Shown here piece by piece: positions 39,054 through 39,600 of a DNA stretch of 64,000 bases (its first letter is position 1; each line of letters opens with the position of its first letter). A model generated the notes under the pieces. That model ran no database searches. It had not been told where the DNA came from and saw only the letters and a program-made list of their open reading frames with translations. A program made the translations under genes and the position numbers. The stretch comes from a virus (lineage: Duplodnaviria > Heunggongvirae > Uroviricota > Caudoviricetes): the IMG/VR virus record IMGVR_UViG_643348549_000020; one strand, written 5' to 3'.

Positions 39054-39393
39054 TAGCTAACCAACGAAGCTAAGGTTGGTAATTAAGTAGTTCTCCACGG
39101 GTGAGGTGGAGTGCGTGCGCCGGACGCGGGTGAGCATCCGGCACTGACAGTTTACTGAAAGGATATTTCCCTGAAAAGTCAGACCATAACGCGAAAGCGC
39201 ACGGCGAGGTAGCTGGTTCATAGATAGCCTGTCGTTAAATTTTCGTCGACCGTGCGCTTCCGGTTGTGGCAACCCGCGAAATGGTGCGGCGGTAAGTATG
39301 GCGGGGTTATTTCTTCCCCGTTGAGGACACCGGGTTGTCAGGTTGACCATACGCTTAAGTGACAACCCCGCTGCAACGCCTTCTGTTATCAAT

Positions 39394-39451
39394 TTTCTGG
39401 TGACGTTTGGCGGTATCAGTTTTACTCCGTGACTGCTCTGCCGCCCTTTTT
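39394..39451 (+). ncRNA. dicF: DicF small RNA (ftsZ-targeting sRNA) with its terminator hairpin and T-run
   Basis: TTTCTGGTGACGTTTGGCGGTATCAGTTTTACTCCGTGACTGCTCTGCCGCCCTTTTT matches the DicF sequence as I recall it; located between ydfC and dicB as in Qin. Confidence 0.6.
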
Positions 39452-39456
39452 AAAGT

Positions 39457-39600
39457 GAATTTTGTGATGTGGTGAATGCGGCTGAGCGCACGCGGAACAG
39501 TTAAAGCTAAAAACAGCGTTATGGGTGATTCTGTATTCCGGCGTTAATTGTTAACTGGTTAACGTCACCTGGAGGCACCAGGCACCACATCACAAAATTC
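39457..39600. repeat. Perfect 18-bp inverted repeat pair (GAATTTTGTGATGTGGTG / CACCACATCACAAAATTC) enclosing 108 nt between dicF and dicB
   Basis: Seen directly; would form a long double-stranded stem in the transcript. Confidence 0.6.

What the first reader, a model, noticed from the sequence alone, without database searches (positions are those of the whole stretch)
39060..39600. Highly structured region around DicF: long hairpins upstream and a perfect 18-bp inverted repeat enclosing the dicF-dicB spacer
Strong stems such as cgggttgtcaggttgac...gtgacaaccccg precede DicF. A perfect 18-bp inverted pair (39457-39474 and 39583-39600) brackets 108 nt between DicF and dicB and would form a long double-stranded stem in the polycistronic RNA. 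This is consistent with the known RNase III/RNase E processing of the dicA-ydfABC-dicF-dicB transcript, but the exact architecture here may differ from K-12.
Basis: partly seen in the sequence, partly recalled or inferred. Interest (0 to 1): 0.5.

Follow-up and report, generated by a model that had tools for sequence, protein, structure and literature searches.

The report
Known DicF processing stems, O157 prophage
This is the well-studied dicBF cell-division-inhibitor operon of a lambdoid prophage in E. coli O157:H7, and the long inverted repeat is the double-stranded RNA stem that RNase III is already known to cut in the K-12 copy, so the finding is real but ordinary.

Summary
DicF lies at 39394-39446 (Rfam 76.7 bits, cutoff 48). 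The inverted repeat is 19 bp perfect (39456-39474 / 39583-39601), one more than reported, and reaches 21 bp as RNA. It is the only inverted repeat of at least 15 nt in the 64-kb window.

The locus is the dicA / ydfABC / dicF / dicB operon, 94% identical to K-12 Qin over the 85% of the query that aligns, and present in 4639 of 5426 complete E. coli genomes. Two reviews state that RNase III makes a 72-nt DicF from the full-length mRNA. That 3' end falls at 39465/6, inside the 5' arm. The 190-nt DicF species starts near 39257, inside the upstream hairpin 39184-39269.

Across 65 distinct related sequences the stem is kept through compensatory and wobble changes, so it is selected as RNA. K-12 differs only by two G·U pairs.

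Beyond the finding:
- The 108-nt spacer core is a sub-threshold relative of Rfam STnc100.
- The same arrangement (small RNA, terminator, long stem, division-inhibitor gene) precedes kilR in Rac, where the small RNA is KilS.
- A conserved structured domain (39274-39377) upstream of DicF also occurs in phages P1 and P7.

Verdict: already known, low interest.

The parts
37923..38330 (+). dicA-like HTH repressor gene, context for the operon. The divergent Cro-like gene lies at 37618-37845 (-).
   Evidence: Pfam HTH_3 at 60.9 bits and P22_Cro at 64 bits. RefSeq annotation of the identical O157:H7 sequence.
38835..39053 (+). ydfC, the last coding gene before the structured leader. ydfA (DUF1391) is at 38520-38675 and ydfB at 38677-38805.
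   Evidence: ORF list, annotation, Pfam DUF1391 at 96.2 bits.
39054..39173 (+). Proximal leader with small predicted hairpins (39050-39086, 39093-39111, 39144-39182). Its distribution is mosaic, with breakpoints near 39074, 39096, 39114 and 39174.
   Evidence: MFE helices. Local blastn coverage classes across 256 loci. Not analysed further.
39184..39269 (+). Long upstream hairpin. The core helix is 39195-39204 AAGCGCACGG paired with 39250-39259 CCGUGCGCUU. The lower stem is conserved and the apex is hypervariable. Inferred RNase III site that makes the 5' end of the 190-nt DicF species, near 39257.
   Evidence: MFE. In a 46-sequence alignment the stem is nearly invariant and the apical 35 nt are variable. 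Literature for the 190-nt species and Fig. S1 sequence. The position is inferred by counting 190 nt back from 39446.
39274..39377 (+). Conserved structured domain of the 190-nt DicF isoform. The same domain occurs in the P1 and P7 ban-operon leader, next to P1's annotated 'dicF-like region'.
   Evidence: blastn to P1, P7 and other phages. P1 annotation. Alignments show compensatory changes in H-a (G-C to U-A or A-U in P1, pPE4, L170, L255) and H-b (U-A to C-G in P7, P1, L170). No Rfam family matches.
39394..39451 (+). DicF sRNA: the 53-nt form is 39394-39446, followed by the terminator U-tract 39447-39451. The 5' end is made by RNase E in the AU-rich segment just upstream.
   Evidence: Rfam DicF at 76.7 bits. 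Identical to the K-12 dicF ncRNA b1574. Biogenesis from the literature.
39454..39474 (+). 5' arm of the 21-bp stem (the 19-bp perfect core is 39456-39474). The 3' end of the 72-nt DicF (39465/6) falls inside it.
   Evidence: Covariation. 72-nt species from the literature.
39475..39582 (+). Spacer core, STnc100-like. P2 is 39477-39480 / 39487-39490. The variable hairpin is 39492-39534. P5 is 39540-39549 / 39557-39566. P6 is 39568-39572 / 39578-39582, carrying the hallmark motif CACCUGGAGGCACCAGGCACC.
   Evidence: Rfam STnc100 at 39.8 bits, below the gathering score of 47, E 4e-7. A model built from spacers hits bona fide STnc100 copies. P5 and P6 show compensatory changes. The motif is found in at least 120 Enterobacterales loci.
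39583..39603 (+). 3' arm of the 21-bp stem. The predicted staggered RNase III cut near 39592/3 would create the 5' end of the dicB mRNA.
   Evidence: The cut position is an inference from the 2-nt 3' overhang rule of RNase III.
39607..39807 (+). dicB ribosome binding site (GAGGA 39607-39611) and the dicB coding sequence 39619-39807 (62 aa).
   Evidence: ORF list. Pfam DicB PF05358 at 115.7 bits over its full length.

Best explanation
The region is the untranslated middle of the dicBF operon of a Qin-like lambdoid prophage in E. coli O157:H7. The order is ydfC, a structured leader, DicF, a spacer, then dicB.

Transcripts start at the DicA-repressed promoter and run through the leader. RNase III cuts the long hairpin 39184-39269 and gives the 5' end of a roughly 190-nt DicF precursor. 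RNase E then cuts just upstream of 39394 and gives the mature 5' end. Most transcripts stop at the DicF terminator (53-nt DicF).

Transcripts that read through contain both arms of the 19-21-bp stem (39454-39474 / 39583-39603). That stem forms a near-perfect double-stranded RNA around a 108-nt core. RNase III cuts it about 10 bp into the stem. This produces the 72-nt DicF isoform and separates DicF from a dicB mRNA that starts about 26 nt before its AUG.

Shown here: the identity of the locus, the existence of the stem, its statistical significance and its conservation as RNA. Taken from K-12 literature: that RNase III and RNase E make these ends. Inferred: the exact cut positions in this copy.
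For: - DicF covariance-model hit above threshold.
- Operon gene content.
- 94.4% identity to K-12 over 85% of the 851-nt query, with an identical DicF and an identical 5' arm.
- The locus is present in 4639 of 5426 complete E. coli genomes.
- The 21-bp stem has pair probabilities of at least 0.91 and is the only long inverted repeat in 64 kb.
- Stem conservation: 94.3% of cells are paired against 34-40% when the partners are slid. 15 of 40 pairs have changes on both sides, including 10 of the 21 pairs of the long stem. 0 of 500 shuffles reach the observed covariation score.
- In 51 dicB-type loci the two variable stem positions show only U-A, U·G, C-G, G-C or G·U, and never a mismatch. G·U pairs make sense only for RNA.
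- Literature: 72-nt DicF from RNase III processing of the full-length mRNA. 190-nt DicF with an RNase III-dependent 5' end and RNase E-dependent maturation.
- An RNase III-dependent position at MG1655 1649470, in the dicF-dicB spacer, flagged as known (mapped).
Against: - No transcript-end data exist for this O157 copy, so the cut sites are extrapolated from K-12.
- I could not read Faubladier et al. 1990 itself (not held). The 72-nt 3' end is placed in the stem by counting, not from the original mapping.
- The RNA-seq entry from Gordon et al. rests on 26 reads in the rnc mutant against 0 in wild type, and sits among many similarly weak entries.
- The upstream hairpin is too conserved in sequence to give covariation: only 1 of 45 predicted pairs is compensatory. 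Its structure rests on thermodynamics and on the pattern of a conserved stem with a variable apex.
Confidence: 0.88

Rival explanations
1. The spacer is more than a processing site. Its 108-nt core is an STnc100-family structured RNA. RNase III cuts on both arms would release it as a discrete molecule of about 125 nt, a third product of the operon. That molecule would keep an 8-9-bp closing stem like free-standing STnc100 or P1-type copies, and would have a function of its own.
For: - Rfam STnc100 matches the spacer at 39.8 bits, E 4e-7. It also matches every homologous spacer tested at 30-44 bits.
- A model built only from spacers finds the window's genuine STnc100 copy (27293-27410, 35 bits, E 4.7e-8) and STnc100 copies in other genera.
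- The core sequence and hairpins P5 and P6 are conserved with compensatory changes from lambdoid to P1-like phages, where the closing stem is only 8-9 bp.
- A cut at 39465/6 would leave a closing stem of that same length.
Against: - The score is below the Rfam gathering cutoff, and the 3' terminator part of the STnc100 model is missing here (it aligns onto dicB coding sequence).
- No function is established for STnc100 itself.
- In K-12 RNA-seq the position equivalent to 39482, inside the core, had 0 reads in wild type against 26 in the rnc mutant. That suggests the excised core does not accumulate, though counts are low and the operon is repressed.
Confidence: 0.15
2. The stem mainly controls dicB (and kilR) expression. 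In read-through RNA the extended helix holds the Shine-Dalgarno region in structure, and RNase III cleavage changes the translation or stability of the toxic downstream gene. This would resemble the RNase III site in the lambda N leader.
For: - The 3' arm ends 4-6 nt before the dicB SD and about 20 nt before the kilR ATG in all Rac-type loci.
- Long stems (15-22 bp, or about 21 bp with a 1-nt bulge in the kilR type) are found only directly upstream of small early-left-operon genes such as dicB and kilR. P1-type and free-standing copies have 8-9 bp.
- In the fold of the read-through RNA the terminator U-tract (39446-39449) pairs with the SD (39607-39610). The probability that the SD is unpaired is 0.25 before the cut and 0.79 after it.
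Against: In the same calculation the AUG goes from 0.86 unpaired to 0.02 after the cut, and overall RBS accessibility falls from 0.57 to 0.38. Thermodynamics therefore gives no clear direction. No experimental data were found. This is not exclusive of the main explanation.
Confidence: 0.3
3. The inverted repeat is a DNA-level feature: terminal inverted repeats of a miniature mobile element, or a protein-binding palindrome. It would not be an RNA stem.
For: The core module occurs in many genomic contexts (upstream of dicB and kilR, in the P1 and P7 ban operons, in late regions, in tandem arrays next to tRNAs), as a mobile element might.
Against: - Arm length and sequence change with context, while pairing is kept through G·U intermediates, which are not pairs in DNA.
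- In every annotated dicB- or kilR-type locus examined the element lies on the same strand as the downstream gene.
- No flanking target-site duplication was looked for or seen.
- RNase III-dependent RNA ends are documented for the K-12 orthologue.
Confidence: 0.02

Closest known systems
dicBF operon (ydfABC-dicF-dicB-ydfD) of cryptic prophage Qin, E. coli K-12
   Same: Same gene order and an identical DicF sequence. Same upstream hairpins and the same 5' arm. Same spacer length to within about 2 nt. 94.4% identity over 85% of the 851-nt query (window 39000-39723), falling off inside dicB.
   Different: The 3' arm here is CACCAC and gives a fully Watson-Crick 19-bp core, whereas K-12 has CACTGC with two G·U pairs. 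This allele is rare, seen in 1 of 51 dicB-type loci sampled. The C-terminal half of DicB diverges. ydfD is replaced by a DUF1482 gene, and the exonuclease gene is intact (814 aa) rather than truncated.
KilS sRNA / kilR locus of prophage Rac (b4833; Bar et al. 2021, PMC8175672)
   Same: Same architecture: an RNase III-type hairpin, an sRNA ending in a GGCGG...CCGCC terminator (Rfam DicF at 35-55 bits), TTTTTAAA, a long stem around an STnc100-like core, an SD and then a small cell-division inhibitor gene. An RNase III-dependent position lies 8 nt upstream of the KilS 5' end.
   Different: The seed sequence differs. The stem has a 1-nt bulge and a compensated C-G pair. The downstream gene is kilR rather than dicB. 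Most copies lack the 39274-39377 domain. It is not part of this window.
Rfam RF02076 STnc100 (prophage sRNA of Enterobacterales, related to PasD)
   Same: A multibranch fold closed by a GGUG...CACC stem, and a terminal hairpin CCNGG-AGGCA-CCNGG followed by CACC. The two are detected reciprocally by covariance models. A genuine copy sits in the same window at 27241-27433 (-).
   Different: The spacer scores below the gathering cutoff (39.8 against 47). It has no terminator hairpin of its own. Its closing stem is 21 bp instead of about 8 bp. It lies inside an operon between an sRNA and a coding gene.
RNase III processing sites in phage early transcripts (lambda N leader and sib, T7 early mRNA)
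   Same: A long intramolecular duplex in a polycistronic phage early transcript, cut by host RNase III to separate functional units and to set mRNA ends next to a ribosome binding site. This comparison rests on established knowledge and was not tested here.
   Different: There is no sequence relation. Here one product is a trans-acting Hfq-dependent sRNA, and the loop of the duplex is itself a conserved structured RNA.
'dicF-like region' of phage P1 (NC_005856 68791-68892) and its P7 counterpart
   Same: The domain 39274-39370 is 75-80% identical to P1 and P7 sequence in the C1-controlled ban operon leader, with compensatory changes in both hairpins, and is followed by a terminator-like hairpin. 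Both P7 and P1 also carry the STnc100-like core further downstream (43.0 and 33.4 bits).
   Different: In P1 and P7 the modules are separated by tRNA genes. There is no DicF seed, no long RNase III stem (8-9 bp only) and no dicB.

Membership tests
DicF sRNA (Rfam RF00039) | Covariance-model score at or above the gathering cutoff (48 bits) | tested here: met
   76.7 bits, E 3.6e-15, full model 1-52, at 39395-39446.
DicF sRNA (Rfam RF00039) | Sequence of the ftsZ-pairing 5' region and of the terminator hairpin with its U-tract, as in K-12 dicF (b1574) | tested here: met
   All DicF columns are identical to K-12 in the pairwise alignment. CCGCCC is followed by TTTTT.
DicF sRNA (Rfam RF00039) | Expression and inhibition of ftsZ translation | not testable with these tools
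   No transcript or phenotype data for this copy. Known for K-12 and EHEC from the literature.
dicBF operon of Qin-type prophages | Gene order: dicA-type repressor, divergent cro-type gene, ydfA, ydfB, ydfC, dicF, dicB | tested here: met
   Pfam HTH_3, P22_Cro, DUF1391 and DicB (115.7 bits). RefSeq annotation of the identical sequence. Compared with K-12.
RNase III processing site | Intramolecular duplex of about two helical turns (around 20 bp) in the transcript | tested here: met
   21 contiguous pairs, 19 of them Watson-Crick, with pair probability at least 0.91.
RNase III processing site | Pairing maintained by selection in homologues | tested here: met
   10 of 21 stem pairs show changes on both sides. 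94.3% of cells are paired across the whole structure (91.1% in the long stem itself) against 34-40% in the slid controls. No mismatch at the variable positions in 51 dicB-type loci.
RNase III processing site | rnc-dependent RNA ends within the duplex | not testable with these tools
   Literature on the K-12 orthologue only: the 72-nt DicF and an rnc-dependent coverage position in the dicF-dicB spacer. The position inside the stem is inferred by counting.
STnc100 (Rfam RF02076), for the spacer 39444-39651 | Covariance-model score at or above the gathering cutoff (47 bits) | tested here: not met
   39.8 bits, E 4e-7. Homologous spacers score 30-44 bits.
STnc100 (Rfam RF02076), for the spacer 39444-39651 | Core fold: GGUG/CACC closing stem and terminal hairpin CCNGG-AGGCA-CCNGG; reciprocal detection | tested here: met
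   The motif is present at 39566-39586 and at the genuine copy 27301-27321, with 0 expected by chance. The spacer-derived model hits genuine STnc100 copies at E 1e-11 to 1e-7.
STnc100 (Rfam RF02076), for the spacer 39444-39651 | Own Rho-independent terminator hairpin 3' of the core (model positions about 160-206) | tested here: not met
   This part of the model is aligned onto the dicB RBS and coding sequence with few matches. No hairpin with a U-tract follows the 3' arm.

The most novel reading that the evidence does not exclude
The dicF-dicB spacer may not be a passive RNase III target. It may be a diverged member of the widespread STnc100 RNA family whose closing stem was lengthened into an RNase III site. 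The same module sits between KilS and kilR in Rac-type prophages and in the P1 and P7 ban operons. Cleavage on both arms would then release an STnc100-like RNA as a third, unrecognised product of the dicBF operon. Likewise, the conserved domain 39274-39377 in the 190-nt DicF isoform would be a functional RNA domain shared with P1, not just precursor sequence.
Probability: 0.15. Interest if true: 0.5.

Novelty: already known. Interest (0 to 1): 0.2.

Why it matters
[quoted passage not shown] It therefore adds no new biology. It does confirm that the O157:H7 copy keeps the processing architecture, with an even more perfect stem than K-12.

The side observations have modest value for people working on prophage small RNAs:
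- They link three separately named things: the dicF-dicB spacer, the KilS-kilR 5' UTR and the STnc100 family. All three appear to be one modular RNA architecture placed in front of toxic cell-division inhibitor genes.
- They point to a conserved, unannotated structured domain in the long DicF isoform.

If the spacer core or that domain turned out to be functional, the operon would encode more regulatory RNAs than is currently assumed.

Tried and rejected
(1) DicF seed against the dicB start region. An inverted match joins 39393-39408 and 39623-39638 (16 nt, 81%), which suggested that DicF might pair with the dicB start. The duplex energy of -19.7 kcal/mol is unremarkable: 138 of 2000 shuffles and 330 of 1049 background windows do as well. 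Treated as chance.

(2) SD occlusion by the extended stem. The SD becomes more accessible after the cut but the AUG becomes less accessible. No clear prediction, so it is kept only as a rival.

(3) Weak Rfam hits. DnaX frameshift element (14.4 bits) and ftsZ-DE (13.8 bits) in the region are far below their cutoffs (35 and 72.2) and have E above 1. Chance.

(4) The antisense ORF 39057-39221 (-), annotated 'hypothetical protein' in RefSeq, has no Pfam match and lies inside the structured RNA. It is probably a spurious call. Not pursued further.

(5) Alternative pairing of 39288-39307 with the 3' half of DicF (39424-39445). It appears in the global MFE and could mask the terminator in the precursor. 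It rests on the generic GGCGG/CCGCC motif, and I found no covariation to support it. Left open.

(6) Covariation for the upstream hairpin 39184-39269. The sequences are too conserved for a test.

(7) The minus-strand hit of my own model at 39453-39606 (30.3 bits). Its minus-strand coordinates coincide with the plus-strand element, so I take it to be an artefact of the palindromic stem.

(8) Faubladier et al. 1990 and Faubladier & Bouché 1994 are not held in the library, so their original mapping could not be read.

Full report
**What is in the sequence.** Rfam places DicF at 39395-39446 on the + strand, at 76.7 bits against a gathering score of 48. It is 19 perfect base pairs, 39456-39474 TGAATTTTGTGATGTGGTG and 39583-39601 CACCACATCACAAAATTCA, with 108 nt between the arms. 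As RNA it extends to 21 pairs (39454-39474 / 39583-39603), all with ensemble probability of at least 0.91. It is the only inverted repeat of at least 15 nt within 400 nt in the whole 64-kb window, apart from a 15-nt overlapping-arm palindrome at 47140-47157 that is only 93% complementary. The quoted upstream stem exists (39332-39340 / 39360-39368). The region 39050-39625 folds 5.5 standard deviations better than dinucleotide shuffles.

**What the locus is.** The 851 nt around the finding are 100% identical to E. coli O157:H7 strain PV15-279. They are 94.4% identical to K-12 over the 85% of the query that aligns, and related sequence occurs in 4639 of 5426 complete E. coli genomes, with a median of two places per genome. 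The annotation and Pfam scans give this order: a DicA-like HTH repressor, a divergent P22_Cro-type gene, ydfA (DUF1391), ydfB, ydfC, the structured region, dicB (PF05358, 115.7 bits), a DUF1482 gene, an intact 814-aa exonuclease, then excisionase and integrase. This is the dicBF operon of a Qin-like lambdoid prophage. DicF and the 5' arm are identical to K-12. The 3' arm of K-12 reads CACTGC instead of CACCAC, which turns two Watson-Crick pairs into G·U wobbles.

**What is already known about processing.**
- Two reviews citing Faubladier et al. 1990 say the 53-nt DicF arises by Rho-independent termination plus an RNase E cut at the 5' end.
[quoted passage not shown] Seventy-two nucleotides from 39394/5 end at 39465/6, ten pairs into the 5' arm. 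The inverted repeat is therefore the known downstream RNase III site. With the usual 2-nt stagger, the partner cut would fall near 39592/3 and leave a dicB mRNA with a leader of about 26 nt. That partner position is an inference.
- Ragunathan et al. 2023 (PMC10448788) showed that a 190-nt DicF species needs RNase III for its 5' end and accumulates when RNase E is inactivated. Their Figure S1 sequence begins in the apex of the hairpin I call M3. Counting 190 nt back from 39446 gives about 39257, inside the 3' arm (39250-39259 CCGUGCGCUU) of the long hairpin 39184-39269.
- An RNase III RNA-seq screen lists MG1655 position 1649470, in the dicF-dicB spacer, as rnc-dependent and 'known'. It maps to window position 39482 or thereabouts. 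The read counts are low.

**Conservation test.** I collected spacer homologues from annotated phages, plasmids and E. coli genomes, from IMG/VR and from GTDB genomes. I aligned the 66 resulting sequences, 65 of them distinct, and counted pairs for the stem plus three inner hairpins.
- 94.3% of cells form standard pairs, against 34-40% when the 3' partners are slid.
- 15 of 40 pairs have changes on both sides, including 10 of the 21 pairs of the long stem.
- No shuffle out of 500 reaches the observed covariation score.
- In 51 dicB-type loci the two variable stem positions occur as C-G/G·U (20), C-G/G-C (12), U·G/G·U (11, the K-12 type), U·G/G-C (6), and one each of two rarer combinations, both pair-preserving, one of them the window's U-A/G-C. 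There is never a mismatch.

Wobble intermediates and same-strand orientation relative to the downstream gene argue for selection on RNA, not on DNA.

**Architecture beyond K-12.** Three observations go beyond the finding.

- *STnc100 relationship.* The spacer is a sub-threshold match to Rfam STnc100 (39.8 bits, gathering score 47, E 4e-7). So is every homologous spacer tested, at 30-44 bits. The hallmark CACCNGGAGGCACCNGGCACC occurs twice in the window, in the spacer and in a genuine STnc100 copy at 27241-27433 (-), with none expected by chance. It also occurs in at least 120 Enterobacterales loci, most of them STnc100 hits, often in tandem and next to tRNAs. A covariance model built only from spacers finds the genuine STnc100 copies. 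Free-standing and P1-, P7- or D6-type copies have closing stems of 8-9 bp. Stems of 15-22 bp occur only directly upstream of small early-left-operon genes.
- *Rac-type prophages.* The same module sits in front of kilR, the other prophage FtsZ inhibitor, and is preceded by a DicF-like terminator hairpin (Rfam DicF at 35-55 bits). In MG1655 this sRNA is annotated as KilS (b4833; Bar et al. 2021). That paper does not mention DicF. The same RNA-seq screen lists an rnc-dependent position 8 nt upstream of the KilS 5' end.
- *Upstream domain.* The leader upstream of DicF is mosaic. The hairpin 39184-39269 has a nearly invariant lower stem and a hypervariable apex. The domain 39274-39377 is conserved as far as phages P1 and P7, where P1's genome annotation carries a 'dicF-like region'. 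Both of its hairpins show compensatory changes. No Rfam family covers it.

**Mechanism and rivals.** The best-supported reading is the textbook one. The two long duplexes are RNase III entry sites that, together with RNase E and the DicF terminator, carve DicF isoforms out of the operon transcript and separate the dicB message (confidence 0.88).

- *Regulation of dicB.* The stem might also regulate dicB. This could not be decided, because cutting is predicted to free the SD (unpaired probability 0.25 to 0.79) but to bury the AUG (0.86 to 0.02).
- *A third RNA product.* The excised core might be a functional STnc100-like RNA. The homology evidence allows this. The K-12 RNA-seq entry weakens it, since the core position has no wild-type reads, and STnc100 itself has no established function.
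- *DNA-level explanation.* A mobile element or a protein-binding palindrome is very unlikely given the wobble pairs.

**Verdict.** The feature is already known. The difference from K-12 is two wobble pairs becoming Watson-Crick pairs. The links to STnc100 and KilS and the P1-shared upstream domain are minor new annotations worth recording, not a new kind of system.

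Noticed in passing
window 39444-39651 (+), core 39475-39582: The dicF-dicB spacer is a sub-threshold relative of Rfam STnc100 (39.8 bits against a gathering score of 47). A model built from spacers detects genuine STnc100 copies in return. I found no paper stating this link.
   Followed up: yes
window 27178-27578: A cluster of prophage RNAs lies between a DNA methylase gene (27625-28683, -) and a 648-aa ORF (25084-27030, -) that I did not scan; it looks like an esterase from recall only. The cluster holds STnc100 (27241-27433, -, 144.5 bits), AgvB anti-GcvB sRNA (27178-27239, +, 96.5 bits) and a tRNA-like remnant (27519-27578, -, Rfam tRNA 37.3 bits, model positions 7-64 only). 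ARAGORN does not call the remnant as a tRNA.
   Followed up: partly
window 32490-32664 (-): Rfam sok antitoxin RNA hit (111.7 bits), suggesting a hok/sok-type toxin-antitoxin locus in the same prophage region.
   Followed up: no
L257 (MG1655 1418230-1418502, -), and L002, L007, L130-L135: The Rac-prophage sRNA KilS (b4833) is the positional counterpart of DicF and a weak sequence relative. It has the same GGCGG...CCGCC terminator, is followed by the same long stem and STnc100-like core, and then by kilR. The Salmonella copy (L135) passes the Rfam DicF cutoff at 55.5 bits. The paper that named KilS does not mention DicF.
   Followed up: partly
window 39274-39377 (+); L009 1501-1595 (P1); L005 1092-1189 (P7): A structured RNA domain of about 100 nt upstream of DicF is conserved at 75-80% identity in the ban-operon leader of phages P1 and P7, with compensatory changes in both hairpins and a nearly invariant apical loop (CAGGTTGACCATACGC). 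It has no Rfam family. It also occurs without DicF in a CPS-53-like prophage (L004).
   Followed up: partly
window 39288-39307 and 39424-39445: In the global MFE, an upstream segment (GGCGGUAAGUAUGGCGGGGU) pairs with the 3' half of DicF in place of the terminator hairpin. This could be an alternative fold of the 190-nt precursor. No covariation support was found.
   Followed up: no
window 39057-39221 (-): RefSeq annotates a 54-aa 'hypothetical protein' (WP_001302137.1) antisense to the structured leader. It has no Pfam match and is probably a spurious gene call inside an RNA element.
   Followed up: partly
L088 3700-5520, L050 890-2010, L042 3418-3847, L036 3100-4070: In Citrobacter, Pantoea and Enterobacter genomes, STnc100-family elements occur as tandem arrays of 2-5 copies, some interleaved with tRNA genes. 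That pattern looks more like a processed multi-RNA array than a lone sRNA gene.
   Followed up: no
window 39619-39807 (+): DicB here shares the N-terminal half with K-12 DicB, but the C-terminal half is strongly diverged. It still matches Pfam DicB over its full length. The downstream gene is DUF1482 rather than ydfD.
   Followed up: no
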